Source: Gammaproteobacteria bacterium
GTDB taxonomy: Bacteria > Pseudomonadota > Gammaproteobacteria > JAADJB01
Reading direction: 5' to 3'
Length of the DNA: 62,862 bases
Assembly: GCA_013151035.1 (NCBI GenBank)
Contig: JAADJB010000018.1
Location: 1-62,862, forward strand
The notes below the pieces were generated by a model. The model had not been told where the DNA came from. It saw only the letters and a program-made list of their open reading frames with translations, and searched no databases. The position numbers were made by a program, and so were the translations under genes. Below are positions 5,182 to 56,005 of this stretch, one piece after another. Positions within the stretch are counted from its first letter, which is position 1; every line of letters begins with the position of its first letter.

Positions 5182-5195
5182 TTGATCAGGATCAA
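5182..5195 (+). promoter_or_regulatory. FNR/DNR/NnrR-type box TTGATcaggATCAA
   Basis: Perfect TTGAT-N4-ATCAA palindrome about 165 bp upstream of the nosR start. Confidence 0.5.
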
Positions 5196-5359
5196 GGGTA
5201 GTTTACGGCTGTGAGTCTACGCTACTCCCTTAGTTTACTGGTAAATGCCTGAGGAACCTCTGATAGGATGTTAGTTGATATTAATGGACTATATGATTTT
5301 TCTGTGCAGGTGGTTTCACCAGTTATAAATACTTTTGATGTATTTGCATAGGGGTTGAT

Positions 5360-7450: not shown

Positions 7451-7463
7451 ACAGGAGATAGCT

Positions 7464-9335: not shown

Positions 9336-9360
9336 TCCTCTGGATAGCAGTATTGTGATT

Positions 9361-9407
9361 ACACCCCCATTCTCATTTGTATGGGAGTGGGGGTGTTTGT
9401 TTTTTAA
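9361..9407 (+). terminator. rho-independent terminator after nosZ
   Basis: Hairpin cacccccattctcat/atgggagtgggggtg followed by gtttgtttttt. Confidence 0.5.
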
Positions 9408-9428
9408 TGGACCAGGGGCTGATAACAA

Positions 9429-12489: not shown

Positions 12490-12509
12490 GATTGTGCAGG
12501 GTTCATGAG

Positions 12510-13055
12510 ATGTTCAGGATAAATAGTTACATGTATTTTCGATTCTTGTGGTTTATGATTTTTTTGACAATTGCCGGCTGTGAAAATACTGAGGTAAAAG
12601 ATCAGTCACGGGGGGCAGGTATCTTCCATGACTCGGATGAGTGTCATGTCTGTGGTATGGTTATTGCCCGTTTTTCAGGGCCCAAGGCGATGGTCTATCT
12701 CAGGAAGCAGCCGGAGGCAATTCGCTTTTGTTCAACCCATGAATTATTTATCTGGTTATTGCAACCTGAATCTGCCGCTATTGTTGAAACGATTTATGTG
12801 CATGATATGGGTGGTGAAGGATGGGATGACCCTGATCACCCGGTGATGCTGGAGGCAAGAAATGCCTGGTATGTACTGGATGAAAAGAAGAGGGTTGCGA
12901 TGGGTGTGATGTTGGCCCCATTCTCCCGTGAAGAGGCAGCGCTACGTTATATCAAGGAGAATGGTGGGCGACTGCTCCGTTTTGACGAGATTGATTTGCT
13001 ATTGCTGCAATCAATAATGCCATCGCCCGTTGACTATAGTGAGCCCCAGTCCTGA
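12510..13055 (+). CDS. nosL: NosL, copper-chaperone lipoprotein
   Basis: Lipobox LTIAGC and position after nosY. The start is ambiguous among 12486 (TTG), 12510 and 12531. Confidence 0.75.
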   Translation: MFRINSYMYFRFLWFMIFLTIAGCENTEVKDQSRGAGIFHDSDECHVCGMVIARFSGPKAMVYLRKQPEAIRFCSTHELFIWLLQPESAAIVETIYVHDMGGEGWDDPDHPVMLEARNAWYVLDEKKRVAMGVMLAPFSREEAALRYIKENGGRLLRFDEIDLLLLQSIMPSPVDYSEPQS

Positions 13056-31999: not shown

Positions 32000-32116
32000 A
32001 TACTTACTATTGATCAGGGGTTCCTTAATCTTTGCTTGATGACTTTGGGTGAATATACCGGCCATTCGCCTCATGGTTTTATTGATTATGAGGTGAATAG
32101 CCGGTATATTCACCTC

Positions 32117-33226
32117 ATGAAGTACAATTGGCAACAAGATGACTGGCCTGATTTTCACTATGATATTTCCAGATTTCAGGATGTTTCATTCGTTTTTGCG
32201 GAGAAAACGGGGTATGTTAGCGGTCTTTTGAAAGGTCTGCCTGACCCCATGAAAACGGAAGCAATTATCAATCTTATGGTTTCTGAAGCGGTTAAGACTT
32301 CGGAAATTGAGGGGGAGTATCTAAATCGTTCTGAGGTGATGTCCTCTATCCGCCATAATCTGGGTCTGGATGAAGATAAAGAATCTGTTGCAGACCAACG
32401 TGCCAAAGGTGCCGCAGACCTTATGGTCGATATTCATAATGGTTTCAAGGAAACACTAACCAAAGAAAAACTCTTTGATTGGCATAAAATGTTGTTATCG
32501 GGTCAACATAGACGAATAGAAATTGGTGCGTGGCGAACCCACGAAGAACCCATGCAGGTTGTCTCTGGCCCTATTGGTAAATGGAAGGTTCATTTTGAAG
32601 CTCCGGCTTCTGAAAAAGTACCGGAAGAGATGGAGCGGTTTATAAACTGGTTCAATAGCACTGCACTGGGTGATAAAAATGAGATTAAAAATCCTGTTCT
32701 ACGCGCTGCTATTGCACATTTATATTTTGAGAGTATCCATCCCTTTGAAGATGGAAATGGACGTATAGGTAGAGCGTTATCTGAAAAAGCGCTATCACAA
32801 AATCTTGGTCGTCCTATTCTTTTAAGCCTGTCTGAAACTATAGAAAAAAATAAGAAGGCCTATTACAACGCATTGAAAACAGCGCAGCGATCAAACGAGA
32901 TAACAGAGTGGATAATTTATTTTTTAAGCACCATTATTGAAGCGCAAACCAGAGCCGAAGAAAATATAGTATTCATACTTAAGAAAACAAAATTCTTTGA
33001 TCAATTTGAAAACCAACTTAACGAACGTCAGTTAAAAGTAATTCGACGCATGTTAGAAAAGGGAATAGATGGCTTTGAAGGTGGCATGAGTACCAAAAAA
33101 TATGTGGCCATTACCGGTGCATCGAAAGCAACGGCTGCACGTGATTTGCAGTACCTGACGGAGATAGGCGTATTTAAGCAAACAGGCGGTGGTCGTAGTA
33201 CCCGGTATGAGGTTTATTTAGGGTAA
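32117..33226 (+). CDS. Fic-family protein (DUF4172 N-domain plus Fido domain)
   Basis: Fic motif HPFEDGNGRIGR. Start taken at MKYNWQQDDWPDF, the DUF4172-type N-terminus. The locus is AT-rich. Confidence 0.85.
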   Translation: MKYNWQQDDWPDFHYDISRFQDVSFVFAEKTGYVSGLLKGLPDPMKTEAIINLMVSEAVKTSEIEGEYLNRSEVMSSIRHNLGLDEDKESVADQRAKGAADLMVDIHNGFKETLTKEKLFDWHKMLLSGQHRRIEIGAWRTHEEPMQVVSGPIGKWKVHFEAPASEKVPEEMERFINWFNSTALGDKNEIKNPVLRAAIAHLYFESIHPFEDGNGRIGRALSEKALSQNLGRPILLSLSETIEKNKKAYYNALKTAQRSNEITEWIIYFLSTIIEAQTRAEENIVFILKKTKFFDQFENQLNERQLKVIRRMLEKGIDGFEGGMSTKKYVAITGASKATAARDLQYLTEIGVFKQTGGGRSTRYEVYLG

Positions 33227-33310: not shown

Positions 33311-34669
33311 CTACCGTGGTTTCTTTATCATCGCTTGAATCATAACGATCAGGAATAACAGGCCGCCGATGATTGCAATTAAACCACCCAGCCCCATCAT
33401 GGCCATACCGGCTATTTCGGGTAGTTGATCCAGGCCTTGTGCAGCACCGGCGGTCTTGCGTTGCACGCCGTAACCACCCGACCAGGCAAGCCCGAGGATA
33501 TGCATCAGTTGACCACCGCCATAGACGTAGGGTTGTATGCGCGCCAGTTTGGTATCGGGTGCGCTGAAGCCCAGTTTGGGTAATAACAGGTAGCCGAGTC
33601 CCATGAAGGCGAGGGTGATGCCTACGATAGAGCCATGATAGTGGGCGGGGATAACGACATTGATACCGTGGATCATAAAGGCGAGAACACCGCCGGTGGC
33701 AAATAACAGAACGGAGCAGATGAGGGCGTTTCTAATCGGACGCTGTGCACCGCTGGCCTTGTCTGCACGCAGTAAATAGTAAGCAATGATCAGACCAAGT
33801 GGCAGGCTGGTCAGTCCGCCCCAACGCATGAGTTCGGTGTAATTGATGCGGTGTTCCAGGCTATAGGTCTCACTGCCGAGTGAGATCGGGATGGCAATAA
33901 AGGCAGGTAGCAGACACAGTGCCAGTAATAAACGGGTTGTCTTTGGCGCGATGTTTAACGGGACTCCACTGCCTTGACTGATCCATAACCAGGCCACCAG
34001 CATCATCAGGCTGTGGGTGAATTGCAGCACATGGCCGCTTCCCCAGAACAGGTATTCAAAATAGGTTTTGCCGATCAGGTCGCTAGGCAGGGTGAGGTAT
34101 GAGTAAATGAAGATCAGTAATGCGATGAGGGTGGTCAGTGATGCACTGCGGATGCCAAATTGCAGGGCTTGAGAGGCGGTATAGGTTGTGCTACGCGGTG
34201 TCGTTGTGTGCAATAAAACGGGTATCAGTTGTAGTGCAATGCCGCTGATAAATAGACCTAGGCCAAGTAGAAACAGGGGTTGTTGCAGGATCGGGATATA
34301 GTTATTGAGTAGAGGTTGTGCTTCGCCAGTAAACGGCGCGATGATAATGGCGCTGGTACCGAGGATCGCCAGGCTTAGAGCTACCTTTTCTAATGTGGGT
34401 GCATATTGTGCCTGTTGTATACTCCATAGCAGGGCGGCAAAGGACAGGAACCAGATCAATACCGAGAGATCAACATGAACAATCAGTGCGGTATGAAAAA
34501 AATCAGTCCAGGGGATGATGTCCTGTATCCCTGGGGTACGGGAAAGCACCAGCAATAAGGAAAACAGACCCGCTGCAACCAGGGCGACCAGTCCCAGGTT
34601 AAGCCAGATAATGGGTCGTTTTTGCTGTGCCGGGGATAGCTCGGGCAGGGTATAGTCGTTTGGGTTCAT
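33311..34669 (-). CDS. polytopic membrane protein (~12 TM) with heme-copper-oxidase subunit-I-like motifs and an incomplete binuclear-site His set
   Basis: LFWGSGH (HCO helix-VI W-x3-H pattern), PAHYHGS (H-x-H as in HFHYV), and only one His where the HH pair is expected. Confidence 0.5.
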   Translation of the reverse strand: MNPNDYTLPELSPAQQKRPIIWLNLGLVALVAAGLFSLLLVLSRTPGIQDIIPWTDFFHTALIVHVDLSVLIWFLSFAALLWSIQQAQYAPTLEKVALSLAILGTSAIIIAPFTGEAQPLLNNYIPILQQPLFLLGLGLFISGIALQLIPVLLHTTTPRSTTYTASQALQFGIRSASLTTLIALLIFIYSYLTLPSDLIGKTYFEYLFWGSGHVLQFTHSLMMLVAWLWISQGSGVPLNIAPKTTRLLLALCLLPAFIAIPISLGSETYSLEHRINYTELMRWGGLTSLPLGLIIAYYLLRADKASGAQRPIRNALICSVLLFATGGVLAFMIHGINVVIPAHYHGSIVGITLAFMGLGYLLLPKLGFSAPDTKLARIQPYVYGGGQLMHILGLAWSGGYGVQRKTAGAAQGLDQLPEIAGMAMMGLGGLIAIIGGLLFLIVMIQAMIKKPR

Positions 34670-35587: not shown

Positions 35588-35910
35588 GGCAATGGCTCAC
35601 TCCGTTTAATATCTATAATAAGTTGTATTTTAGCACTCTAACAGTATGAGTGCCAAGTGGGTATTAAGTTCCTGTTAATGTGGGAATACCTTTTCCTCTG
35701 GATTGTTGTGCCTGTTGCGCACCAAATTAGTACAATTTATATGCGGGTTTGAATTTGCTGCCTTCTTATAGTGCGGGCCTGCTAGCAGAGAGTTTCATAC
35801 CCTTTTGATTAATAAGCTTTTATGCTTATGGCATAGATTGTGCTAGAGGTTTTAAGGATAAGTAAAAAAATACATTTCTATCTTCTTGAAATCAGGGTTA
35901 AGGGTGCGTC

Positions 35911-37251
35911 ATGAGTAACAGCTTGCTACGGGGTTTTGCCTCGATTATTTTGCTAGCCATTTTTAATATTATTTTTCTTCGGGCAGTCGTTGCGGCTGAT
36001 GATGTCCCCAGACCTATTGTCCACTACCCTGAACGTGGTGTGGCGATGACAGAAAAATGGAAGGTGGTAAAGGATGGCTATAGCAATCCTAAGAAATACA
36101 TTCCGCCTATTATCGAGGGCGCAGGTAAGGATTGCGTCAAGTGTCACAAGGTGTTGACACCTGTTGCGGTGAAGGATTGGGAAGAAAGCAGGCATTATGA
36201 GAAGGGTGTCGGCTGCGAAAGCTGTCATAACGATCACAGCAACCTTATTATGCCGACCCCTGATACCTGTGGAACCTGTCATGCCTCCGAGACTATGCAG
36301 CATCGTGCAGGTAAACATTCTATCGCCTGGAGTATCAAGGTAGCATCGGGTGGTAAAGGTGGCGGTGCGGGTCGTTTCCTTGCCCAGTATGAAGAAATGA
36401 AAGAGGCCAGTTGTGGTGGTTGCCACAGTGTCGAAGATAAGTGTGATTCCTGTCATTCTCGTCACAAGTTTAATCCTAAAGAGGCACTTGAGCCGGCTGC
36501 CTGTGGCACTTGTCATATGGGGCCGGATCATGCGCAGCTGGATTATTATGAATCGTCAAAACACGGTGTCATTTTTGATATAGAAGGTAAGGGGTTTGAA
36601 GAGGGTGGTCGCGCGCCGACTTGTGTCACCTGCCACATGAAGGCCGGTAATCATGATGTCAGTCAGGGTCTGACCTTAGGTGGTGCCTCACAGGGCAAGT
36701 TTATCGGTAAGAAGGATACCGGTGCGGGATACAGCAAAAACCCTAATGGTATCTTGATGAATGAGATTACCGTAGGAACATTCAAACGTGAACGTGCCAA
36801 GATGGTCTCTATCTGTATGAACTGTCATTCACAGCGTTTTGCCGAACATAAGCTATCGGTTGCGGATGGTATCAAAATTGCCAGTGATGCTGTTGCGGGT
36901 GAGGCTATCAAAGTGATTAAATCACTTCATAGTGATGGCTTGTTGAATCCGATGCCGGAGGATAGACCAGAGAATCCATTCGTGGGTAAGAAATTGATGC
37001 TGACCGGGCATCAGCTTTATGAGCAGACATCCGGTATCGAGGCGCTGTTTTTTGAGTTGTATAAGTTTGATCTAGTCCATGCCTGGAAAGGAGCCTATCA
37101 CTTTAGCCCGGATTGGACGCACTGGTATGGTAATGCGCCAATGAAACTGAAGCTGTCCAGGATAAAGAACGAGGCAAACCAGTTGCGGCGCCTGGATAAG
37201 CTGGAAAAAGAGCTGGGTATTGAAGCAGAAAAGGTCGATTTCGGCGAGTAA
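35911..37251 (+). CDS. HAO-family octahaem cytochrome c (hydroxylamine-oxidoreductase-like, reductive type: no cross-link Tyr)
   Basis: Signal peptide and eight CxxCH motifs. Segments PTPDTCGTCH, KCDSCHSRHKF, PAACGTCHMGPDH..SKHG, APTCVTCHM and CMNCHSQRFA closely resemble Nitrosomonas HAO as recalled. Confidence 0.85.
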   Translation: MSNSLLRGFASIILLAIFNIIFLRAVVAADDVPRPIVHYPERGVAMTEKWKVVKDGYSNPKKYIPPIIEGAGKDCVKCHKVLTPVAVKDWEESRHYEKGVGCESCHNDHSNLIMPTPDTCGTCHASETMQHRAGKHSIAWSIKVASGGKGGGAGRFLAQYEEMKEASCGGCHSVEDKCDSCHSRHKFNPKEALEPAACGTCHMGPDHAQLDYYESSKHGVIFDIEGKGFEEGGRAPTCVTCHMKAGNHDVSQGLTLGGASQGKFIGKKDTGAGYSKNPNGILMNEITVGTFKRERAKMVSICMNCHSQRFAEHKLSVADGIKIASDAVAGEAIKVIKSLHSDGLLNPMPEDRPENPFVGKKLMLTGHQLYEQTSGIEALFFELYKFDLVHAWKGAYHFSPDWTHWYGNAPMKLKLSRIKNEANQLRRLDKLEKELGIEAEKVDFGE

Positions 37252-37257
37252 TTACGC

Positions 37258-37899
37258 ATGAGACTTATCGTAATGTTTTTATTCCTGTTGACCGCCAGCC
37301 TGACAGTGCAGGCTAAGGGGCTGCCGCGTGCGGAGAGTTGTGGTAGTTGCCATGTATCAAACTTTGATACCTGGGAGTCCTCTGCGCATGCTGACTCTAT
37401 TAGTCGCCAGGGCTTTCGCAGTTGTCTGGAAGACTATCTGGAAAAAGAAAGGACGAACAGTGGTGCCTATTGTTTTGACTGCCATGCGCCTGGTGAGGTG
37501 ATTAGTGGTGATGTCTTTGCGGCCACTAATGATGTCATGAAAGGTAAGTTGTATCGTGATGGTGTGACCTGTGTGGCTTGTCATAGTGTGGAGTCTATTC
37601 AAGACGGCAAGGCGATTTATGATCCGGGTGGCATTAACGGTTATCACAGTGTGAAGGATCTCAAGTCTGTTGATAGAGAGGCATTATGTTTGACTTGTCA
37701 TAGTCGCTATCAATCCACTCGCCCGGTGACGGAAGAAACGGCTCCTGGATTTTTTGAGAATCTTTATGCGGGTTTAAGTGGTGTGGTGAGCACAAAAAAC
37801 AAAACTATAACCGATCATCGCTTCGTTGAGTCGGTGGTAGAGAATGAAGGGCACTGGGAATGTAAATCGGGATCGCTGTTAGAAGAGGGACATCAATAA
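37258..37899 (+). CDS. tetrahaem cytochrome c, c554-like
   Basis: Signal peptide and four CxxCH motifs. N-terminal CGSCH..W.SSAHA resembles c554 (CSSCH..W..TAHA). About 210 aa. Confidence 0.7.
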   Translation: MRLIVMFLFLLTASLTVQAKGLPRAESCGSCHVSNFDTWESSAHADSISRQGFRSCLEDYLEKERTNSGAYCFDCHAPGEVISGDVFAATNDVMKGKLYRDGVTCVACHSVESIQDGKAIYDPGGINGYHSVKDLKSVDREALCLTCHSRYQSTRPVTEETAPGFFENLYAGLSGVVSTKNKTITDHRFVESVVENEGHWECKSGSLLEEGHQ

Positions 37900-39545
37900 T
37901 GTTACGTGGTATCTTTATACTACTGACCAGTCTGTGCTTATCAGTGGCATTCCTTACGACGGCACAAGCCGCAGGTTATGCTGCCAGTGCAAACATTGAT
38001 AGTGCCAAAAAAGAGGGCGCAGCCGACTGTAAGTCGTGTCACGAAGAAACTAAAAAACCTGAAAGATATGAGTCGGCCAGATCCTGGCTAAAGAGTCGTC
38101 ATGCGGCGGAGGGTGTAAGCTGTGTTGATTGTCATCTGAAACAGGATGTTAAGGGTCAGGACTTTTACACAGCGGTTACTACAGAGAGTCGGCAAGAGGC
38201 ACATGCCGCCATGGTGGCTGACCCTGATAATAAGGAAAACAAGGCCTACTTTATAGAGGTCTGTGGTAGTTGTCATCAAGATAGATTAACGGAATTTAAT
38301 GCCAGCGTTCATGGCGTAGCAAACAGCAAGAGTGAGACCACAGCGGTGAGTTGTGTGGATTGCCATGACCCTCATTTGGCACCCCTGGTGACCAGCAAGG
38401 CATCGAAGATCTACCGGGGTAATGATACCAATACCTGTGGTCGATGCCATAAGGATGCCCTCGGCTCCTACATGAAGACCTTCCACGGCAAGCAATTTCA
38501 TTTAGGGAATACCCTGGCTCCGACCTGTATCTATTGTCATCGAGGTCATGAAGTACCCACCGATTCCCCTGCCTCGTTTATTCATGCCGATAATATTGGT
38601 GGTCTATGTGCCGGTTGTCATGGTGATGCCATTAATGCCGGTGCCGGTGCTGATGCCCTGCTGATACAAAATTTAAGCGGTGATTCCACGCGTAAGGTGA
38701 CTCATTTCCGTGATCCGGTAACGGCCGGGCCTTTCTCGGTTGCCTCCATGATTGATTCGACCTATCTGGCGATGATTATTGGTATTGTCGGGTTTTTCAC
38801 CTTGCTTTCCACACGCGATTATATGAAAAAGACCCAGGCGGGTGCCTCCAGTAGTGAGGATGATAATAAACCGAGTGTGAAACGCTTCTCTATCTCCTGG
38901 CGTTTACAGCATTTCTTCTGGGCTTTGTCATTTATTCTTCTGGCAGCAACGGGTCTCTCGCTTAAATTCCCTGAGTCAGTGCTTTCTGAGGCAGTGGTGT
39001 GGATGTCAGGTGGTGAAGAACTGCGTTCTATTATTCACCGCATTGCCGCGATTGTCTTTATGCTGTTGGCGGCTATTCATCTATTGCCCTATCTGCTCAA
39101 GTTGAAACCACCGGGTAAGATATTCCTTAGCAAAAAAGATTTTATTGATGCCTTTTTGCACACTAGTTATCTGTTTGGCAGAGCCGATAAAATGCCGTTG
39201 ATGTACCGTTATGCCTGGTATCAGAAGGTGGAATACTGGGCGACAGTGATCGGTGGTTTCATTGTTATATCAACCGGGCTATTGATGTGGAATTTCTCTC
39301 CACTGGCAAGCTGGATTCCAGTTGAATTTGTTTTTTATGCGCAGTTGATACACGGTTGGGAGGCAATCCTGGCGGTGCTGGTCATCTTTGTGCAGCATTT
39401 CTATCATGTGTTCCTGAATCCTGATGTGTTCCCGATGGATACCTCATGGTTAACCGGCAAGACCAAGTACAAGGTGATGAAGCATGATCATCCGCTTGAA
39501 TTGATGGAGATAGAATCAAAAAAGGAGAAAGCCGATGAGGATTAA
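37899..39545 (+). CDS. heptahaem cytochrome c fused to a C-terminal FdnI/HyaC-type dihaem cytochrome b membrane domain (CbcL-like quinone-reactive subunit)
   Basis: Seven CxxCH motifs in the periplasmic part. Five TM helices follow, with RLQHFFW, AAIHLL, LIHGWEA and VQHFYH His patterns typical of Ni_hydr_CYTB/FdnI cytochrome b. Confidence 0.8.
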   Translation: MLRGIFILLTSLCLSVAFLTTAQAAGYAASANIDSAKKEGAADCKSCHEETKKPERYESARSWLKSRHAAEGVSCVDCHLKQDVKGQDFYTAVTTESRQEAHAAMVADPDNKENKAYFIEVCGSCHQDRLTEFNASVHGVANSKSETTAVSCVDCHDPHLAPLVTSKASKIYRGNDTNTCGRCHKDALGSYMKTFHGKQFHLGNTLAPTCIYCHRGHEVPTDSPASFIHADNIGGLCAGCHGDAINAGAGADALLIQNLSGDSTRKVTHFRDPVTAGPFSVASMIDSTYLAMIIGIVGFFTLLSTRDYMKKTQAGASSSEDDNKPSVKRFSISWRLQHFFWALSFILLAATGLSLKFPESVLSEAVVWMSGGEELRSIIHRIAAIVFMLLAAIHLLPYLLKLKPPGKIFLSKKDFIDAFLHTSYLFGRADKMPLMYRYAWYQKVEYWATVIGGFIVISTGLLMWNFSPLASWIPVEFVFYAQLIHGWEAILAVLVIFVQHFYHVFLNPDVFPMDTSWLTGKTKYKVMKHDHPLELMEIESKKEKADED

Positions 39546-40074
39546 TCGGTTGTCTCTATTGATGTTGGTGATGGGGCTTGCTTCGTTACTGTTGGCACCT
39601 GCTCAGGCGAGTGATGAAAGCTGTATTAGCTGCCATTTACACAGCGAATTGAGTCAGGACTTTGCTGCGCCATTACATGATATCAAAACGCTGGCCGGAT
39701 TCCATGGCTATGTATTCAAACAAAGAGGGTCTGATGCCGATTGTCAGGTCTGCCATGAATCAGGTCAGACCAAGGGCGAACTCCCATCGGCACAGGTCTG
39801 CCTGACGTGTCACACCCGAGGCAAGTCGACACAGGGTGATCCTGATACGGTCTTTCATGCCGAAGAGAATCACTGGCCGATGGAAAAGGTGTCGTGTACC
39901 ACCTGCCATAAAGGTCACGTTGCCGGTAACAGGATAATTAAATTTATGACGGGTGATGCGATCAATGCCTGTCAGCAATGTCACAAGAAAAGTTTTAAGA
40001 CAATATCCGGTTTGGATAAAAGCGGTGAGCCGGCAACAGTGAATGAACCGGACAACCGTTATGGGCAAAATTAA
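39535..40074 (+). CDS. pentahaem cytochrome c, NrfB-like
   Basis: Signal peptide and five CxxCH motifs in about 179 aa. Confidence 0.7.
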   Translation: MRINRLSLLMLVMGLASLLLAPAQASDESCISCHLHSELSQDFAAPLHDIKTLAGFHGYVFKQRGSDADCQVCHESGQTKGELPSAQVCLTCHTRGKSTQGDPDTVFHAEENHWPMEKVSCTTCHKGHVAGNRIIKFMTGDAINACQQCHKKSFKTISGLDKSGEPATVNEPDNRYGQN

Positions 40075-40092
40075 GACAAGAGGTTATTGATA

Positions 40093-41394
40093 ATGAGTGC
40101 TACTGAGAATATGGCTGTTTTTGCAGTATCGCTGGATACTGTGTGGGTGATTATTGCGGCTGTTCTGGTCTTTATGATGAATGCCGGGTTTGGCATGTTG
40201 GAGGCGGGGCTTTGTCGGGCAAAGAATACGGTGAACATCTTTGCCAAGAACATTGTTATCTTTGCCATTGCCGGTTTGAGTTTCTGGCTGGTGGGCTTTG
40301 GTTTGATGTTTGGTGATGGTAATTCACTGATGGGGATGACCGGCTGGATGTTATCCGGTGTCGATAATAGCCCGGCGGTGGGTGACTATTATTATGGTGA
40401 TTATACTTCTCTTAGTTGGGCGGCCTTACCCCTGTATGCCAAGGTTCTATTTCAACTGATGTTTGTTGCTGCCTCAGCGCATATTGTCTCCGGTGCGGTA
40501 ACCGAGCGCATCAAGTTTTTCTCATTTATTGCCTTCTCTATAGTATTGGTTGCCATTATTTATCCGGTTGTTGGTCACTGGGCATGGGGTGGTGGTTGGT
40601 TGTCTGATCTGGGTTTTATTGATTTTGCCGGTAGTTCGGTGGTGCATTCTGTTGGTGGCTGGGCGGCACTAACAGGAACGATTATTCTGGGTGCGCGGGC
40701 AGGTAAATTTACCCGTGATGGCAGGGTGTCACCTATTCCGGGGCATAACCTGGCGATGGCGGCATTGGGCATGTTCCTGTTGTGGTTCGGTTGGTTTGGT
40801 TTTAATGCGGGCAGTGCAATGACAGCATCAAGTGGCGAGCTGATTGCCACAGTGGCACTCAACACAACGCTGGCGGCGGCAGCGGGTGTAATCAGTGCCT
40901 TGATTGCTGCCGAGGTGCTTATTGGTAAACCGGATATGAGTATGATTCTTAATGGTGCATTGGGTGGCCTGGTGGCGATTACAGCGGGTTGTGCCGAGGT
41001 TAGCACCAGTGGTGCCGTCATTATCGGACTTGTCTCCGGTGTGTTGGTGGTCTACTTTATTATGTTACTCGATAGACGGCGTATTGATGATCCTGTTGGT
41101 GCGGTGCCGGTGCATCTTGTCAACGGTATCTGGGGCACATTGGCTGTTGGTTTATTTAGCCTGAGTGAAGGCTTCTTTTATACCGGGGAGTTGTCATTGT
41201 TGACGACTCAGTTGATCGGGGTTGCTGCGATTGCGGTCTTTGCCGGGGGTGGTAGTTATCTTGTCTGGCACCTGGTCAGTCTGCTTTTGGGTGGCTTGCG
41301 TGTGAGTCAGGAAGAAGAACACATTGGTCTTGATATCAGTGAGCATGGTATGGAGGCCTATCCTAGTAGTTCAGGCCCCAGGGCTCTTTATTAA
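40093..41394 (+). CDS. amt: ammonium transporter (Amt family)
   Basis: 11 TM helices. Amt motifs ..DFAGSSVVHSVGGWAAL.. and twin-His region ..GLFS.. Confidence 0.9.
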   Translation: MSATENMAVFAVSLDTVWVIIAAVLVFMMNAGFGMLEAGLCRAKNTVNIFAKNIVIFAIAGLSFWLVGFGLMFGDGNSLMGMTGWMLSGVDNSPAVGDYYYGDYTSLSWAALPLYAKVLFQLMFVAASAHIVSGAVTERIKFFSFIAFSIVLVAIIYPVVGHWAWGGGWLSDLGFIDFAGSSVVHSVGGWAALTGTIILGARAGKFTRDGRVSPIPGHNLAMAALGMFLLWFGWFGFNAGSAMTASSGELIATVALNTTLAAAAGVISALIAAEVLIGKPDMSMILNGALGGLVAITAGCAEVSTSGAVIIGLVSGVLVVYFIMLLDRRRIDDPVGAVPVHLVNGIWGTLAVGLFSLSEGFFYTGELSLLTTQLIGVAAIAVFAGGGSYLVWHLVSLLLGGLRVSQEEEHIGLDISEHGMEAYPSSSGPRALY

Positions 41395-41417: not shown

Positions 41418-42077
41418 ATGGGCTGGTTAATATTCTTTTTTTGCTGGATCTTGTTTCTTTGGCTTTATCACCATAGTGAGAAGAATAAGCAACTTCGTGC
41501 ACAGTCAATGCAAACGGAGAAGCATGTCGATTATGGTTCGGTAAAACGTGACTTTGATGAAAGCATGAAGTCATTTAATGATAGCGAGGGCTTCAAGGCG
41601 CGTTTGGCACATATTGATCGCGCCATTGGTCATCTTGAACAAATGGAAGAGATGCTGCCGGGGAAGGATTCAGCCTCCCAGCTATCTGAATTACTGTCAT
41701 TGAAACGGGGGCTCACGCATTCCGGTATCAAGGGACGGTTTCAGGAGTCTATGCGTAAGGCGCGCGAGACCACGAGTACCATTGCCAAGGTTAATCATGC
41801 CACCTCTGCACAGGCGATCCTGAGCGAAGGACTGGATATGGGTATTGATAAAGAGTTGTTGAGCGAAGAGATCGAAGAGGCGAATGACTTTATCAACCAG
41901 TTGCAATATGACGAGTATCTCGCCAAGGCAAGCAAGGAAGAGGCAAAGGGTAATACGAAAGGTGCCATTGATCAGTATCAGGTGGCACTGTACTTCCTGA
42001 AGATGGCGCATATAGGCAGTGAAAAGCAGGATGCGCTGGTGAATGAAATCGAGAGTAAGCTACAGAGTCTTTCCTGA
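41418..42077 (+). CDS. hypothetical protein with one N-terminal TM anchor and a helical soluble domain
   Basis: MGWLIFFFCWILFLWLY hydrophobic anchor; the rest is charged and helical. Confidence 0.45.
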   Translation: MGWLIFFFCWILFLWLYHHSEKNKQLRAQSMQTEKHVDYGSVKRDFDESMKSFNDSEGFKARLAHIDRAIGHLEQMEEMLPGKDSASQLSELLSLKRGLTHSGIKGRFQESMRKARETTSTIAKVNHATSAQAILSEGLDMGIDKELLSEEIEEANDFINQLQYDEYLAKASKEEAKGNTKGAIDQYQVALYFLKMAHIGSEKQDALVNEIESKLQSLS

Positions 42078-42147
42078 TCGGGGGCCCTGGGTGATATTTT
42101 TAAATGAAAAATAAAACAACGTATTAGTAATAAAAGTGGAGACAATC

Positions 42148-43590
42148 ATGGAAACCAATGAAACACGGGGCAAAATGAATAATTTTGGTGAGACGATGAA
42201 ACAGACCGGTCTTGCAAAGCCGACAGTATTGGGTGGTTTGTTTGCTGCCCTGTTATTTGCCGGTGCAATAGGCGGGCTGCTGGAAACCAATGAAGCGGGT
42301 ACTATTACGGTCAAACAGTCTGCGATGACGGGGGCAGTGGATATTATTTCCAAGCCGGGTTTGTTTTGTCAGTGTCTTGGTTCGGTGACAAAATATCCTG
42401 AGGCGGGTACCGTCAAGTTTGCCCAGGCCGATCAAATAAAAGGGCCTAATGGCACCATGATCGAGCGACCGGGCCGGAGTAAGGAGAAAGATCCTTCCCT
42501 ATCCAGTGAGATCGAGGTACGATTTAATGATGGTGGTCTGGGCTGGATCTCGGTGATGACAATGTTTGATCTACCAGCTGATCGAAGCAAATTAAGACTT
42601 GTTCACAAGAAGTTTCGGGATTATAACAATCTGCTTGAGATGGGTGTCAAACCGACTATTGAAGAGTCTGTAGTATTAACGGCTGCCTTGATGAATTCGG
42701 GTGAGTCGTATACCACTAAACGAGCCATCTTCTCTGAATGGGCCAAGGATCAATTGACTCAGGGTACTTATATGACAGAAGAGGTTGCTCGTTCTGATCA
42801 GGGTACATTGGGTGGTGCGATGGAAAACAATGTTGTCAGGGTTAAGGTAAAGGATGGTGCAAAACTGAGAAACGAGGACCCTCTAGCACGTTACGGGATC
42901 AAGTTTAAACAGTTCCAGATTACCAATATTCGTTATGAGGCAGAGACCGAGAGTCTTATCAAGATCAAGCGTAATGCACTGCAACAGACCATCGTAGCCA
43001 GGATCGCAGCAGAGCGTGCCAAGCAGGAACGTCTGGCGGCTGAAGAGTTTGGTAAGAAGAAGGTCAAGATTGCTGAATATGAAGGCATGGTAAAGAAGAA
43101 AAAGGCCGAGGTTGCAGCGGAAGAAGAAAAGAGTGTTGCTATCATCAATGCCGAACGTAAGTTGGCAGTGGCCAAGGTAATGAAGCAGAAGGATCTGGGT
43201 GCGGCTAATAAAAAGGTTGCGCTGGCGAAACTGGAAAAGGAAAAGGCCATTATTACTGCTGATAAGGGTGTTAAGGTTGCCAAGTTAAATGTTGATGCCG
43301 CGAAGTATAATAAGCGGGCTCAAATCCTTGAGGGTGAAGGCGTGAGTGAGCAAAGACGGCTCATCTACAAGGCTGATGGCGCGCTGGAACAGAAGCTGGA
43401 TGCCTACGTGAAGGTGATGACGGTATTGTCCAAGGAACTGGGCAAGCAGAAATGGGTGCCTGATATTGTTATGAATGGTAGTGGTAATGGTGGTGCTGAT
43501 CAGGGTAATGCGGCTGCTGGGTTTATGAACCTGTGGATGATGAAGGCAGCGAAGGATCTTGATGTTGAGCTGACGGCTAAGAAGAAGTAA
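42148..43590 (+). CDS. SPFH/band-7 domain protein, flotillin-like (YqiK-like), with a long Ala/Lys/Glu-rich coiled-coil
   Basis: N-terminal membrane segment, SPFH-like core and an EA/KA-rich repeat region. Start taken at the ATG with an upstream GGAG. Confidence 0.65.
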   Translation: METNETRGKMNNFGETMKQTGLAKPTVLGGLFAALLFAGAIGGLLETNEAGTITVKQSAMTGAVDIISKPGLFCQCLGSVTKYPEAGTVKFAQADQIKGPNGTMIERPGRSKEKDPSLSSEIEVRFNDGGLGWISVMTMFDLPADRSKLRLVHKKFRDYNNLLEMGVKPTIEESVVLTAALMNSGESYTTKRAIFSEWAKDQLTQGTYMTEEVARSDQGTLGGAMENNVVRVKVKDGAKLRNEDPLARYGIKFKQFQITNIRYEAETESLIKIKRNALQQTIVARIAAERAKQERLAAEEFGKKKVKIAEYEGMVKKKKAEVAAEEEKSVAIINAERKLAVAKVMKQKDLGAANKKVALAKLEKEKAIITADKGVKVAKLNVDAAKYNKRAQILEGEGVSEQRRLIYKADGALEQKLDAYVKVMTVLSKELGKQKWVPDIVMNGSGNGGADQGNAAAGFMNLWMMKAAKDLDVELTAKKK

Positions 43591-43615
43591 TTTTCTTTAT
43601 TACTGTTGTTAGTGA

Positions 43616-43646
43616 AGATGCCCGCATAAGCGGGCATTTTTTATTT
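43616..43646 (+). terminator. rho-independent terminator
   Basis: atgcccgc ataa gcgggcat followed by tttttt. Confidence 0.65.
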
Positions 43647-45540: not shown

Positions 45541-46532
45541 TCCTGTTCAAAGAGTGCCTGAATGAATTCATCAGCATGAAACTCACGTAGATCCTCGATG
45601 GCTTCACCGACACCAATAAAACGAATAGGGATGCTCAGGCGTTCCGCAATAGCGAAGATGACACCACCCTTGGCAGTGCCATCCAGTTTGGTAATGGTGA
45701 TCCCGGTGAGTCCCATAGCCGCATGGAATTGAGTGGCCTGATTGATGGCATTTTGACCCGTACCCGCATCCAGCACCAACATCACCTCATGGGGTGCATT
45801 GGCATCCAGCTTCTGTAACACACGCTTGAGTTTTTTCAGTTCTTCCATCAGGTTCGATTGGGTATGTAGACGACCCGCAGTATCCGCGATCAGGATATCG
45901 ATGTTTTTAGACTGTGCCGATTGCAGGGCATCGTAGAGCACCGATGCCGAATCAGCTCCCTGATGTTGAGCCACCACCGGGATGTCATTGCGTTCGCCCC
46001 AGCTCTGTAGTTGTTCCACCGCAGCTGCCCGAAAGGTATCACCGGCAGCCAGCATCACGCTTTTACCCTGATCCTGGAAACGGCGCGCCAGCTTGCCAAT
46101 GGTGGTGGTCTTGCCAGCGCCATTAATCCCGATCATTAACAGGACAAAGGTACCATTGCTGGTGTCGATATTCAGAGGTATCGTGCAGGGTGTGAGGATC
46201 GCCTGCATATCCTCACGCAGGGCAGACATTAAGCTGTCGGCATCCTTGAGTTGTTTGCGTGCAACGCGTTGGGTCAGATCCTTGAGGATGCGCTGGGTTG
46301 CTTCAATACCAATATCCGCAACCAGTAATTGAGTCTCAAGATCCTCCAGTAGTTCATCGTCAATCTCCTTGTGACCCAGCACAAGGTTAGATATGCCCTC
46401 AACCAGCCCGCTACGGGTTTTGGATAGCCCGTCCCGCAAGCGACCAAAAAGGCCTTTTTTGGGCTTTTCTGGCTCTGTACTTGGTGTTACAGCCGTCTCT
46501 TCAGGGTCTTTTTTACGCTTGAAGCCAAACAT
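45537..46532 (-). CDS. ftsY: signal-recognition-particle receptor FtsY
   Basis: NG domain GINGAGKTTTIGKLA, DTAGR, TKLDGTAKGG. Confidence 0.9.
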   Translation of the reverse strand: MFGFKRKKDPEETAVTPSTEPEKPKKGLFGRLRDGLSKTRSGLVEGISNLVLGHKEIDDELLEDLETQLLVADIGIEATQRILKDLTQRVARKQLKDADSLMSALREDMQAILTPCTIPLNIDTSNGTFVLLMIGINGAGKTTTIGKLARRFQDQGKSVMLAAGDTFRAAAVEQLQSWGERNDIPVVAQHQGADSASVLYDALQSAQSKNIDILIADTAGRLHTQSNLMEELKKLKRVLQKLDANAPHEVMLVLDAGTGQNAINQATQFHAAMGLTGITITKLDGTAKGGVIFAIAERLSIPIRFIGVGEAIEDLREFHADEFIQALFEQE

Positions 46533-46749
46533 GGAAACTCTAACCTGTCGTTGAAGTAATGGTAGCTATGATAACAGCAAGTATCTTTATAATATATCCA
46601 CCTGCCATGCTTGTTTTTCTTTGGGCTTAACTAAGAATCAGTAAAAATAATTTGACCTGAATCTGGATTAACTTAATGTGTTAAAATAAAGCGTACAAAG
46701 GCACACTAGTATTAAGTTGAAATGTAACAAAAACAAGGGGAATCCTTAC

Positions 46750-47154
46750 ATGAATCAATACCGTTGGGTATCAATTTTTATTCTTATCTTATCTACAAAT
46801 GTATATTCATATCAATCTAAAGTTGAAATTGTAGAGCAATTTGATGATTTAAAGATGGTCGCATTTATAAGCAAAGAATATATTAATAACAGTCCTGAAT
46901 GGATTCCAGGTAAAACAGCTCTTCCTTTGACTGTTGCCGATGCTATTAAAGCGGTCAATGATTTTAACAAAGATGAAAATAAAGTAGATGTTATAAGTGA
47001 AATAGAAATAAGAAAAATACCAAAACATAAGAAACACTGGCACTATTTAATTAAAGTTGCTAACAAGGCCATGAAATTAAAATATAATATTTATGTGGTA
47101 TTAATGAGTGGTAAGGTTGTTCCAGCAATGATTCAACCACAATCTTATAAATGA
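46750..47154 (+). CDS. hypothetical secreted protein (AT-rich)
   Basis: Signal-peptide-like N-terminus. Followed by a strong terminator. Confidence 0.4.
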   Translation: MNQYRWVSIFILILSTNVYSYQSKVEIVEQFDDLKMVAFISKEYINNSPEWIPGKTALPLTVADAIKAVNDFNKDENKVDVISEIEIRKIPKHKKHWHYLIKVANKAMKLKYNIYVVLMSGKVVPAMIQPQSYK

Positions 47155-47165
47155 CCGGTTATAAA

Positions 47166-47207
47166 AAGGGGACGGAGGGATTAAATAATCCTCTGTCCCT
47201 TTTTTTT
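47166..47207 (+). terminator. rho-independent terminator
   Basis: gggacggaggg ... ccctctgtccc followed by tttttttt. Confidence 0.65.
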
Positions 47208-47226
47208 AAAACACAGGGTATTTTAA

Positions 47227-47658
47227 ATGGATTACGAGAAGCGCGAAGAAAATCGCGAAGAGATAAGAAAAGCCAACGAATGCTTGTTAATGGAGTTTGA
47301 AGCGTGGCTAAAATCATCAGGTCTGTCGGAAAAGACGATAAATAATCATGTTTCGAATATTGATTTCTACGTAAACGACTATCTGTTGTACGATGATATA
47401 ACTGAGGCAAAAGATGGTGCATCCTCTGTAAGCATGTTTCTTGGATATTGGTTCATAAAAAAGGCGATGTGGGCAAGTCGGTCAACTATTAAGGGCAACG
47501 CAACAAGTCTCAAAAAGTTTTATACCTTTATGCATGAGAAGAAGCAGATAGATAAAGAAGACCTTAGTGACTTAAAAGAAGTGATAAAAGAAGATATGTC
47601 TGAATGGTTAGCAAGCTTGGAACGCTATGATGATCCATCAGTTGAGGAAGTTTGGTGA
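47227..47658 (+). CDS. hypothetical protein resembling a tyrosine-recombinase N-terminal SAM-like (core-binding) domain; probable orphan fragment
   Basis: ..FEAWLKSSGLSEKTINNHVSNIDFYVNDYL.. resembles integrase CB domains. No catalytic domain follows. Confidence 0.35.
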   Translation: MDYEKREENREEIRKANECLLMEFEAWLKSSGLSEKTINNHVSNIDFYVNDYLLYDDITEAKDGASSVSMFLGYWFIKKAMWASRSTIKGNATSLKKFYTFMHEKKQIDKEDLSDLKEVIKEDMSEWLASLERYDDPSVEEVW

Positions 47659-47877
47659 TGTGGCGTATGACATGGGGCTGGTTACAATCATCGCAATAAT
47701 TATTGTATGAGTTTCTATGAAAGCTAAAACATTTAGGTGTTACACGTCAATCTATTATAAAAGTTTGGTTGGCGGAGCGCTTAGAAAAAATAGCGTCTAA
47801 ATAACTGGCGACTGTATGTGGTAGGGACGATGAGTTTTATAAAATTAATTAACACCAATCAGGATGTTGGAAATATG

Positions 47878-48090
47878 ATGATAAATATAGGTCGATTGAT
47901 AGTGTTTTCAGCCATTGTTTCGGGTATTGGCTGTTCCAGTGGGGAAGACAAGGTGGCTCCGGAAAAAACGGTCAGTGAACCTGTTTTTCAAGGTCAGATT
48001 CAGGCGCTTGAAAAAGCAAAAGAGCTTGAGTTGATGATTAAAAATGAAGCAGAGAAGCGTCGTCAGGCGATAAAAGAAGGTAGTAATTAA
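47878..48090 (+). CDS. small putative lipoprotein
   Basis: Signal peptide plus ..SGIGCSS lipobox-like motif. Confidence 0.35.
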   Translation: MINIGRLIVFSAIVSGIGCSSGEDKVAPEKTVSEPVFQGQIQALEKAKELELMIKNEAEKRRQAIKEGSN

Positions 48091-55809: not shown

Positions 55810-55944
55810 CTCCAATAGGAGCATAAAAAATGACATGGTCTGCTTTGAATTGATTTGAGTCATTATCGCATCTACATCCTTTAAATATCCATATCCACCT
55901 AAGATGCTATTAGAACAATAGTAATAATAGCAAACCTAGCAGTT

Positions 55945-56005
55945 CCCTAATCATTATTATAACGGTTCAAATCAAATAATCCGGATAATACGGGCTTGTT
56001 TTGTC
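55945..56005. repeat. 61-bp direct repeat, right copy (overlaps the last 13 codons and stop of cti)
   Basis: Identical to 51363-51423. Confidence 0.9.

What the first reader, a model, noticed from the sequence alone, without database searches (positions are those of the whole stretch)
35911..37251. HAO-like octahaem lacks the haem-P460 cross-linking tyrosine (His in its place)
The protein aligns well to Nitrosomonas HAO around the haem-binding motifs. Near the C-terminus, ours reads SPDWTHWYGNAPM against HAO ..GGWTYTEGWGPM as I recall it. That puts His where the Tyr forms the covalent cross-link to the catalytic haem.

Loss of this Tyr is the hallmark of the reductive HAO-like enzymes (epsilonproteobacterial Hao, some anammox paralogs). 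This therefore predicts a reductase (nitrite, NO or hydroxylamine) rather than a hydroxylamine oxidase.
Basis: partly seen in the sequence, partly recalled or inferred. Interest (0 to 1): 0.65.

Follow-up and report, generated by a model that had tools for sequence, protein, structure and literature searches.

The report
Tyrosine-less HAO-type octahaem reductase operon
This gene encodes a hydroxylamine-oxidoreductase-type octahaem cytochrome that lacks the haem-cross-linking tyrosine of the ammonia-oxidiser enzymes, so it most likely reduces nitrite or hydroxylamine; such proteins are already known to be widespread, but its fixed operon with an ammonium transporter appears undescribed.

Summary
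ORF 35911-37251 (+) encodes a 446-aa periplasmic protein with eight CxxCH motifs and a confident HAO fold (pLDDT 91; TM 0.66-0.73 to solved HAO/HDH structures). No tyrosine sits at the cross-link position in any multi-sequence or profile alignment.

"His in its place" is only one of three defensible placements. The loop (S399-PDWTHWYGNAPM-411) is one residue shorter than in cross-linked enzymes. The tyrosine therefore falls on H404 (MAFFT, HMMER), on W405 (upstream-anchored), or in a gap between them (hhalign).

Y406, two residues on, pairs with the cross-link Tyr only in pairwise alignments to the anammox HOX. It is Phe, Leu or His in 43 of 120 close homologues, so it is not a conserved cross-linker. 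H404 is invariant.

In a rough tree the protein lies outside the clade holding all cross-linked enzymes.

The gene heads a seven-gene operon: c554-like tetrahaem, heptahaem fused to an FdnI-like cytochrome b, pentahaem, Amt, a membrane protein and an SPFH protein. The order is kept in homologues down to 69-72% identity.

Best reading: a quinol-fed "reverse-HURM"-like nitrite/hydroxylamine reductase feeding Amt. The reductive direction is inferred, not shown.

It is a new member of a known kind; interest is moderate.

The parts
35911..37251 (+). HAO-family octahaem cytochrome c (446 aa) with an N-terminal signal-peptide-like helix (residues 3-27) and no cross-link tyrosine
   Evidence: AF2 model with MSA has pLDDT 91. 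Foldseek against PDB gives TM 0.66-0.73 to 4N4J, 6T5E, 6H5L, 6HIF and 1FGJ. NCBI names it 'hypothetical protein' NOX08696.1.
36412..36426 (+). Fourth CxxCH motif (C168-GGC-H172), by homology the catalytic five-coordinate haem 4
   Evidence: Invariant in 90/90 aligned homologues. Position matches the haem-4 motif of NeHAO and Kustc0458 in the alignments.
36526..36531 (+). D206-H207, equivalent to the distal-pocket Asp267-His268 of NeHAO; the local motif CHMGPDH is identical to Kustc0458
   Evidence: Alignments. D and H are each present in 88 of 90 homologues.
37105..37143 (+). Loop S399-PDWTHWYGNAPM-411 that corresponds to the cross-link loop. H404 is codon 37120-37122, W405 is 37123-37125 and Y406 is 37126-37128.
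   Evidence: translation. H404 is invariant in 120/120; W405 in 118/120; Y406 is Y77/F38/L4/H1.
37258..37899 (+). Tetrahaem cytochrome c (213 aa) with a cytochrome c554-family match; probable electron shuttle
   Evidence: Four CxxCH motifs. Pfam PF13435 E = 4.8e-10. Conserved next to the hao-like gene in L001, L002, L007, L010, L012 and L013.
37899..39545 (+). Heptahaem c domain fused to a membrane dihaem cytochrome b of the FdnI / Ni_hydr_CYTB type (548 aa); probable quinol/quinone-interacting module
   Evidence: Seven CxxCH motifs. PF01292 E = 5e-15 and TIGR01583 E = 1.4e-14. PDB 1KQF chain C (FdnI) E = 5e-6 over residues 334-545.
39535..40074 (+). Pentahaem cytochrome c (179 aa), c3/NrfB-like
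   Evidence: Five CxxCH motifs. Pfam PF14537 E = 1.5e-9.
40087..41394 (+). Amt-family ammonium transporter (435 aa), 12 nt downstream of the pentahaem gene
   Evidence: PF00909 E = 4e-118; TIGR00836 scores 412 bits against a cut-off of 343. Same position in L002, L007, L011 and L013.
41418..42077 (+). 219-aa predicted membrane protein of unknown function, conserved in the operon
42136..43590 (+). SPFH/Band-7 family protein (484 aa), last gene of the operon
   Evidence: PF01145 E = 1.9e-7. Conserved in L002, L007, L013, and probably L011.
43614..43641 (+). Terminator-like hairpin (12-bp stem, 6 G-C pairs, T-run) closing the seven-gene unit
   Evidence: It has the longest, most G+C-rich stem of the terminator-like sites reported between 35911 and 43600.

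Best explanation
The gene encodes a periplasmic, probably trimeric, HAO-type octahaem cytochrome. Its catalytic haem 4 is an ordinary c-haem, not a tyrosine-cross-linked P460.

It is the terminal enzyme of a seven-gene module. The FdnI-like dihaem cytochrome b fused to seven c-haems exchanges electrons with the quinone pool. The pentahaem and the c554-like tetrahaem relay them. The octahaem uses them to reduce nitrite, and/or NO or hydroxylamine, to ammonium or hydroxylamine. The co-transcribed Amt channel takes up the product.

This is a gammaproteobacterial counterpart of the 'reverse-HURM' scheme.

Shown: the fold, eight haem motifs, a conserved Asp-His pocket, the absence of a cross-link Tyr, operon composition and its conservation.

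Inferred: trimer formation, direction of electron flow, substrate and product, and the role of Amt.
For: No Tyr at the cross-link position in HMMER (NeHAO, HDH), MAFFT or hhalign alignments. Y406 is replaced by Phe, Leu or His in 43 of 120 close homologues, including a 77%-identical one. In the distance tree every T-Y protein clusters with NeHAO, HOX and HDH, and the query lies elsewhere.

The catalytic haem-4 motif and D206-H207 are conserved. The HAO fold is modelled with pLDDT 91.

Characterised Tyr-less HAOs are reductases with negligible hydroxylamine oxidation (PMC8042395).

The operon genes are separated by -11 to +58 nt, with a strong terminator only after the last gene. The same gene order, including amt, occurs in homologues of 69-89% identity from other metagenomes.

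Amt was proposed and found up-regulated as part of the reverse-HURM pathway in Nautilia (PMC3701875). The window also carries nosRZDFYL and a NarK-type MFS transporter, so the organism handles N-oxides. A 49%-identical homologue in a Methanoperedens-type contig lies beside an HPP-family gene; from my own knowledge, not tested here, that is a nitrite-transporter family.
Against: To my knowledge no enzyme of this H-W-[Y/F]-G clade has been characterised. The characterised HAOr belongs to the other clade, and epsilon-Hao could not be placed.

The FdnI-type cytochrome b and a c554-like partner are equally compatible with electrons flowing from the enzyme to quinone, as in nitrifier HURM.

Homologues of 58-60% identity have no cytochrome partners or amt, and one sits beside katG and a Fur-like gene. 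The operon role may therefore be specific to this subclade.

Sulfur substrates have been proposed for non-clade-III HAOs (PMC9213671). No hcp, nap or nir gene lies next to the operon.
Confidence: 0.55

Rival explanations
1. It is an NO-forming nitrite reductase feeding denitrification, like Kuenenia HAOr. In this organism it would substitute for NirS/NirK upstream of NOR and NosZ. Amt would be incidental.
For: Kustc0458/7 reduces nitrite to NO and shares the local motif CHMGPDH and the loop length with the query (PMC8042395). The window encodes a complete nosRZDFYL cluster with an FNR-type box, and no nirS or nirK.
Against: The query is not in the Kustc0458 clade. Only 63 kb of the genome is visible, so the absence of nirS/nirK is unknown. 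The conserved amt in the operon argues for an ammonium or hydroxylamine product.
Confidence: 0.15
2. It detoxifies hydroxylamine, NO or nitrite (nitrosative stress defence) rather than serving respiration or assimilation.
For: In a 58%-identical homologue the gene stands alone beside katG and a Fur-family regulator. HAO-family enzymes are catalytically versatile in vitro (PMC8042395). A detoxification role was also suggested for the Beggiatoaceae orange octahaem (PMC6449678).
Against: A dedicated 16-haem, quinone-coupled transfer chain and a transporter in one operon is a heavy investment for detoxification.
Confidence: 0.12
3. It acts on sulfur compounds (sulfite, tetrathionate or polysulfide), in either direction, within the sulfur metabolism of a chemolithoautotroph.
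For: HAO-family proteins outside the nitrifier/anammox clade were hypothesised to reduce sulfur species (PMC9213671). Relatives such as MccA and OTR handle sulfur compounds. The window belongs to a RuBisCO-bearing gammaproteobacterium whose nearest MAG matches are labelled Acidiferrobacteraceae and Chromatiales.
Against: No sulfur-metabolism gene is in the operon, whereas an ammonium transporter is. The Asp-His pocket typical of N-oxide-handling HAOs is conserved.
Confidence: 0.08
4. It is an oxidative P460-type HAO after all, cross-linked through Y406, feeding electrons from hydroxylamine or hydrazine oxidation into the quinone pool as in nitrifier HURM.
For: HMMER pairwise alignments to KsHOX and BfHOX pair Y406 with the cross-link Tyr. 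A c554-like partner and a quinone module resemble the nitrifier hao-cycA-cycB arrangement.
Against: Y406 is at His397+9 and Gly407-1. Cross-link tyrosines are at His+8, and at Gly-3 wherever that Gly is present. MAFFT and hhalign pair Y406 with NeHAO E469. Y406 is Phe, Leu or His in 43 of 120 homologues, including a 77%-identical one. The protein lies outside the clade containing all T-Y proteins. No amo or hzs genes are in the window.
Confidence: 0.04

Closest known systems
Kuenenia stuttgartiensis HAOr (Kustc0458, PDB 6H5L), a nitrite-reducing HAO without the Tyr cross-link
   Same: Octahaem HAO fold (E = 2e-40; Foldseek TM 0.66). Identical CHMGPDH pocket motif. Same loop length, with an ungapped match DVSWWWGQAPM / DWTHWYGNAPM and no cross-link Tyr.
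   Different: About 28% identity, and a different clade in my tree. Trp rather than His at the His+7 position. Its partner is a dihaem cytochrome (Kustc0457), not the 4-, 7+b- and 5-haem chain found here. There is no amt linkage, and it is anammoxosome-located.
Epsilonproteobacterial Hao (epsilon-Hao) and the reverse-HURM pathway of Nautilia profundicola
   Same: A Tyr-less HAO proposed or shown to reduce nitrite and hydroxylamine. It is fed from the quinol pool, and Amt transporters are implicated in handling the product (PMC3701875, PMC8042395).
   Different: The epsilon-Hao partner is a NapC/NrfH-type tetrahaem cytochrome encoded elsewhere in the Nautilia genome. Here it is an FdnI-like cytochrome b fusion plus two small multihaem proteins. 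In Nautilia hao, cycB and amtB carry unrelated locus tags, so they are not one operon (PMC3701875); here everything is in one operon. I could not obtain epsilon-Hao sequences, so relatedness was not tested. The literature describes a Trp at the Tyr position (PMC8940962).
Nitrosomonas europaea HAO / anammox HOX and HDH (P460 enzymes)
   Same: Same fold and haem arrangement (TM 0.67-0.73). Conserved Asp-His pocket. A c554-family partner gene lies next to hao.
   Different: They carry the cross-link Tyr (T-Y at His+7/+8) and, apart from the NeHAO-like representative P0185, a loop one residue longer. They form a separate clade and work oxidatively.
Geobacter CbcL-type inner-membrane cytochromes (multihaem c domain fused to an FdnI/HydC-like dihaem b); comparison from my own knowledge
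   Same: Same domain logic as the 548-aa protein: a periplasmic multihaem c domain plus a four-helix cytochrome b.
   Different: Seven rather than nine c-haems. Homology to CbcL itself was not tested. CbcL serves extracellular electron transfer, not an HAO-type enzyme.

Membership tests
HAO/HDH octahaem cytochrome c family (Pfam PF13447 fold) | Eight CxxCH haem motifs in the family's order and spacing | tested here: met
   Eight motifs. All Cys and His of the motifs are invariant or nearly so in 90 homologues. PF13447 E = 1.9e-32.
HAO/HDH octahaem cytochrome c family (Pfam PF13447 fold) | HAO three-dimensional fold, including the C-terminal helices | tested here: met
   AF2 pLDDT 91 and pTM 0.86. 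The top ten Foldseek PDB hits are all HAO, HOX, HDH or HAOr with TM 0.66-0.73; NrfA/ONR score TM about 0.2.
HAO/HDH octahaem cytochrome c family (Pfam PF13447 fold) | Distal Asp-His pair at the catalytic haem 4 | tested here: met
   D206-H207 align with NeHAO D267-H268. Present in 88 of 90 homologues.
HAO/HDH octahaem cytochrome c family (Pfam PF13447 fold) | Homotrimeric quaternary structure | not testable with these tools
   Only monomer prediction is available, and coordinates are not returned.
Oxidative P460-type HAO/HOX/HDH (Klotz clade III) | Tyrosine that cross-links to haem 4 of the neighbouring subunit (T-Y at conserved His+7/+8; three residues before the conserved Gly in NeHAO, HOX and HDH) | tested here: not met
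   The query has H404-W405 at His+7/+8 and a loop one residue shorter. MAFFT pairs Tyr with H404. hhalign places Tyr in a gap. Y406 is variable.
Oxidative P460-type HAO/HOX/HDH (Klotz clade III) | Phylogenetic placement with NeHAO, HOX and HDH | tested here: not met
   In the neighbour-joining tree of 113 family members, the query sits in a separate H-W-[Y/F]-G clade. The tree is rough: distance method, no bootstrap.
Oxidative P460-type HAO/HOX/HDH (Klotz clade III) | 460-475 nm absorption of the reduced enzyme | not testable with these tools
   Needs purified protein.
Reductive, cross-link-free HAOs (epsilon-Hao, Kuenenia HAOr) | HAO fold without the cross-link Tyr | tested here: met
Reductive, cross-link-free HAOs (epsilon-Hao, Kuenenia HAOr) | Nitrite, NO or hydroxylamine reductase activity with negligible hydroxylamine oxidation | not testable with these tools
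   Enzymology is required. Precedent is in PMC8042395.
Reductive, cross-link-free HAOs (epsilon-Hao, Kuenenia HAOr) | Close sequence relationship to a characterised member | tested here: inconclusive
   Kustc0458 is about 28% identical and in another clade. Epsilon-Hao sequences could not be retrieved, and names in two cluster look-ups showed no Campylobacterota.
Reverse-HURM module (Nautilia model) | Tyr-less HAO plus a quinol-oxidising cytochrome partner | tested here: met
   The partner here is an FdnI-like cytochrome b / heptahaem fusion instead of NapC/NrfH-type cM552. It is functionally analogous, not homologous.
Reverse-HURM module (Nautilia model) | Amt-type transporter associated with the module | tested here: met
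   amt is 12 nt downstream in the same operon, and this is conserved in L002, L007, L011 and L013.
Reverse-HURM module (Nautilia model) | Cytoplasmic hydroxylamine reductase (Hcp/Har) and a periplasmic nitrate reductase in the genome | not tested
   Not present in the 63-kb window. The rest of the genome is not available.
NrfA / octahaem nitrite reductase (ONR) | CxxCK motif giving a Lys-ligated catalytic haem | tested here: not met
   The translated sequence printed contains no CxxCK (read by eye), and all eight motifs found there are CxxCH. Foldseek TM to NrfA/ONR is about 0.2.

The most novel reading that the evidence does not exclude
The invariant His404-Trp405 pair sits in a loop one residue shorter than the P460 cross-link loop. 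It may be a functional replacement rather than a mere loss of the tyrosine: a histidine delivered from the neighbouring subunit into or beside the catalytic pocket, serving as proton donor or anion binder for N-oxide reduction. That would define a mechanistically distinct, widespread and uncharacterised class of HAO-type reductases. In this subclade the class is hard-wired in one operon with its own quinone-coupled 16-haem wire and an Amt channel, forming a complete periplasmic nitrite-to-ammonium (or hydroxylamine) capture module.
Probability: 0.2. Interest if true: 0.6.

Novelty: new member of a known kind. Interest (0 to 1): 0.35.

Why it matters
Gene catalogues routinely label such genes 'hydroxylamine dehydrogenase' or, as here at NCBI, 'hypothetical protein'. 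Neither tells a modeller which way nitrogen flows. Showing that this protein lacks the cross-link places it on the reductive side (nitrite or hydroxylamine to ammonium or NO) in a CO2-fixing, N2O-reducing gammaproteobacterium related to MAGs labelled as sulfur-oxidiser families. That affects whether nitrogen is retained or lost at vents and in groundwater.

The conserved operon offers a compact, clonable test system for the long-discussed reverse-HURM idea. It holds enzyme, electron wire and transporter together. It would also allow a test of what an invariant His-Trp at the cross-link site does.

Tried and rejected
1. Single-sequence AlphaFold gave pLDDT 33 and was unusable. It was repeated with a 90-sequence alignment.

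2. The tools return no coordinates or residue-level structural alignments, so the H404 / W405 / gap question could not be settled structurally.

3. As a proxy I used a preprint's numbering (10.64898/2026.07.28.741245): W782 minus haem-4 His499 equals 283. I mapped this onto representative P0210, where H548 to the first Trp of SWWWG is 283. That favours the column of H404. It assumes P0210 and the preprint's protein have no indel in that stretch.

4. Dietl 2019 and Haase 2017 are not held in the library. The alignment figure in the PMC8940962 supplement is an image.

5. A search for 'Tyr451 / kustc1061' gave nothing useful. The identity of the KsHOX cross-link Tyr therefore rests on the T-Y homology with NeHAO Y467 and HDH Y462.

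6. I asked whether the window is Beggiatoaceae and the protein the 'orange octahaem' BOGUAY_0691. There are no TAACTGA repeats, BOGUAY_0691 is 512 aa with a different N-terminus, and the nearest MAGs are Acidiferrobacteraceae or Chromatiales-like. Rejected.

7. I tested for a conserved link between the hao-like gene and the nearby COX1-like ORF. No homologue occurs in any related locus, and there is only a marginal match to a COX1 fragment beside the Methanoperedens-type homologue. Rejected.

8. I looked for an FNR-type box upstream of the hao-like gene and found none.

9. Literature searches for this operon in sulfur-oxidising Gammaproteobacteria found no description.
Full report
**What is there**

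The coordinates 35911-37251 (+) are exactly one ORF of 446 aa. It has eight CxxCH motifs, at C75, C102, C120, C168, C178, C198, C238 and C302, and a hydrophobic N-terminal leader.

It matches Pfam PF13447 (E = 1.9e-32). Among solved structures it matches only HAO-family proteins:
- anammox HOX 6T5E and 4N4J, E about 1e-48
- the Tyr-less Kustc0458 (6H5L), E = 2e-40
- HDH 6HIF, E = 4e-37
- N. europaea HAO 4FAS and 1FGJ, E about 1e-34

An AlphaFold2 model built on 90 homologues is confident (pLDDT 91, pTM 0.86). Its ten best Foldseek hits in the PDB are all HAO, HOX, HDH or HAOr (TM 0.66-0.73). NrfA and ONR score about 0.2.

The sequence is identical in length and cluster to NCBI protein NOX08696.1, a 'hypothetical protein' on a 62,862-bp contig of a MAG labelled Gammaproteobacteria bacterium. 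The nearest genome hits are MAGs labelled Acidiferrobacteraceae, Chromatiales and Gammaproteobacteria.

**The cross-link residue**

Nucleotides 37105-37143 encode SPDWTHWYGNAPM, residues 399-411.

In the HMMER alignment to NeHAO the query DWTHWYGNAPM pairs without gaps with GWTYTEGWGPM. Counting along the chain, the Tyr is residue 467, the cross-linking residue, and it faces H404. HDH 'ATYSDG' (Y462) also faces H404.

Two complications appeared. First, in the pairwise alignments to KsHOX and BfHOX, HMMER paired Y406 with the Tyr of 'QTYGNG', at the cost of two indels. Second, the loop differs in length. From the invariant His (H397) to the invariant Gly (G407) there are 10 residues in the query family and in Kustc0458. 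There are 11 in NeHAO, KsHOX/BfHOX and KsHDH; the one exception among Tyr-bearing sequences is the NeHAO-like representative P0185, which has the shorter loop and no Gly at that spot. Every cross-linked protein has T-Y at His+7/+8.

I resolved what can be resolved:

1. A MAFFT L-INS-i alignment of the C-terminal domains of 226 family members plus the PDB sequences puts the Tyr of NeHAO, KsHOX, BfHOX, KsHDH and their representatives P0251 and P0187 in the column of H404.
2. An hhalign profile-profile comparison of 134 query-clade sequences against the seven Tyr-bearing ones places NeHAO Y467 in a one-residue gap between H404 and W405.
3. An ungapped alignment from the upstream anchor puts the Tyr on W405. 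So does the NeHAO-like sequence P0185 (HQNPNGFTYISWA), which has the short loop. [quoted passage not shown]
4. A 2026 preprint reports, from a trimer model superposed on 1FGJ and 6T5E, that in a Kustc0458-type protein W782 occupies the Tyr position, with haem-4 His499. In representative P0210 the same 283-residue spacing leads to the first Trp of SWWWG, which is the column of H404. This assumes no indel between the two proteins.

None of these multi-sequence or profile analyses puts Y406 at the cross-link site. There it pairs with NeHAO E469 or T468.

Independently, Y406 is not conserved. Among the 120 closest homologues it is Y in 77, F in 38, L in 4 and H in 1, and the 77%-identical P0002 has Phe. 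H404 is invariant (120/120) and W405 nearly so (118/120).

The protein therefore has no cross-link tyrosine. Whether His or Trp stands 'in its place' cannot be decided from sequence.

**Other active-site features**

The fourth haem motif, the catalytic haem in HAOs, is invariant. So is the local CHMGPDH motif, which is identical to Kustc0458 and contains the equivalents of NeHAO Asp267-His268; D206 and H207 are present in 88 of 90 homologues.

Seven candidate distal histidines are conserved in most or all aligned family members: H95, H109, H136, H185, H218, H248 and H397. They account for the seven bis-His haems, so H404 is an additional invariant histidine. That suggests a role of its own, but this is inference.

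**Place in the family**

The library of 1.84 billion representatives holds 865 relatives at E <= 1e-3.

In a neighbour-joining tree of 113 of them plus the PDB sequences, all T-Y proteins fall into one clade. That clade also holds Kustc0458-type proteins and some Tyr-less anammox paralogues. The query lies in a separate large clade characterised by P-D-[YW]-x-H-W-[Y/F]-G. The tree is a distance tree without support values.

Named members of the query's clade come from Methanoperedens and from MAGs labelled Chloroflexota, Nitrospirae, Deltaproteobacteria, Acidobacteria and Clostridiales.

This matches the published picture. HAO-family proteins occur in 65 phyla, and those with a demonstrated role in aerobic or anaerobic ammonium oxidation sit in one clade. 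Campylobacterota HAOs form a lineage in clade II, and the rest are of unknown function (PMC9213671). Tyr-less hao genes can be the most abundant nitrogen-cycle genes in a community (PMC8940962). A Tyr-less HAO as such is therefore not new.

**Surroundings**

The gene is followed, at distances of -11 to +58 nt, by six more genes:
- a tetrahaem cytochrome with a c554-family match
- a 548-aa fusion of a heptahaem domain with an FdnI-type dihaem cytochrome b (PDB 1KQF chain C, E = 5e-6)
- a pentahaem cytochrome
- an Amt ammonium transporter (TIGR00836, 412 bits)
- a 219-aa membrane protein
- an SPFH/Band-7 protein

A strong terminator-like hairpin occurs only after the last gene.

The same order, including amt, is found in 83-90%-identical gammaproteobacterial MAGs. 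It is also found in 69-72%-identical homologues from groundwater and another metagenome (L011 and L013). One variant lacks amt (L010).

Homologues of 58-60% identity have none of these partners, and one sits beside katG and a Fur-like gene. A 49%-identical Methanoperedens-type homologue is followed by CBS and HPP-family genes. The HPP family contains nitrite transporters; that statement is from my own knowledge.

Elsewhere the window carries nosRZDFYL preceded by an FNR-type box, form I RuBisCO with cbbQO, bacterioferritins and a NarK-like MFS transporter. The host is therefore an autotroph that respires N-oxides.

**How it most likely works**

By analogy with the characterised Tyr-less enzymes (PMC8042395) and with the reverse-HURM proposal (PMC3701875), I read the operon as a quinol-fed periplasmic reductase. 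Electrons pass from the quinone pool through the cytochrome b / heptahaem fusion and the small cytochromes to the octahaem. The octahaem reduces nitrite, and/or NO or hydroxylamine. The ammonium or hydroxylamine formed is taken up by the co-encoded Amt.

The fold, the missing Tyr, the conserved pocket and the operon are shown. Trimer formation, direction, substrate, product and the Amt role are inferred. I put this at about 0.55.

Rivals are:
- an NO-forming nitrite reductase for denitrification (0.15)
- a detoxification enzyme (0.12)
- a sulfur-compound enzyme (0.08)
- a P460 enzyme cross-linked through Y406 (0.04)

**Verdict**

The refinement is that the His/Trp assignment is alignment-dependent, and that a nearby, non-conserved Tyr explains why some pairwise alignments look contradictory.

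The protein is a new member of a known kind. The conserved hao-cytochrome-amt operon and the invariant His-Trp pair are the parts worth an experiment.

Noticed in passing
window 33311-34669 (-): A 452-aa membrane protein with only a weak COX1 (haem-copper oxidase subunit I) match (46 bits). It has no NCBIfam or PDB sequence match. By eye it has an H-x-H helix-X-like motif but 'EH' where the CuB 'HH' pair would be expected. It lies downstream of an rpoH-like sigma factor gene. It is not found next to hao-like genes in related loci.
   Followed up: partly
window 5182-13055 (+): A complete nitrous-oxide reductase cluster in nosRZDFYL order; NosR and NosZ have Pfam matches, the other four are named from position and size. 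It is preceded by a perfect FNR/DNR-type palindrome, TTGATCAGGATCAA, at 5182-5195, about 165 nt upstream of nosR.
   Followed up: partly
window 41418-43590 (+); L002, L007, L011, L013: A 219-aa membrane protein of unknown function and a 484-aa SPFH/Band-7 protein are always co-located after amt at the end of the hao-like operon. Their role in a cytochrome/transporter module is unexplained.
   Followed up: partly
L014 6001-9182 and L015 (Methanoperedens-type contigs): A 49%-identical HAO-like gene is followed by CBS-domain and HPP-family genes. On the opposite strand there is a 138-aa COX1-like fragment and a DUF1858 protein. This is a different but also N-oxide-flavoured neighbourhood.
   Followed up: no
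L005 424-4228: In a Syntrophorhabdales MAG the 58%-identical HAO-like gene stands alone, directly downstream of a katG-like catalase-peroxidase gene and a small Fur-family gene (both recognised by eye from their N-terminal sequences). This hints at a stress-defence role in that lineage.
   Followed up: no
window 46000-48000 and 52000-56000: Two stretches with G+C of 0.37-0.39 against about 0.47 elsewhere. The second holds a 1360-aa protein with an N-terminal HTH and a weak AAA match. They may be horizontally acquired islands.
   Followed up: no
window 32036-33226 (+): A Fic/DOC-family protein with DUF4172 and a C-terminal regulator-like domain, lying between the cbbR-like LysR gene and the COX1-like ORF.
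   Followed up: no
window 35807-35835 (+): The intergenic region upstream of the hao-like gene contains a short inverted repeat, ATAAGC-N6-GCTTAT, preceded by a TTGAT half-site. No full FNR box is present. It may be a regulator site.
   Followed up: no
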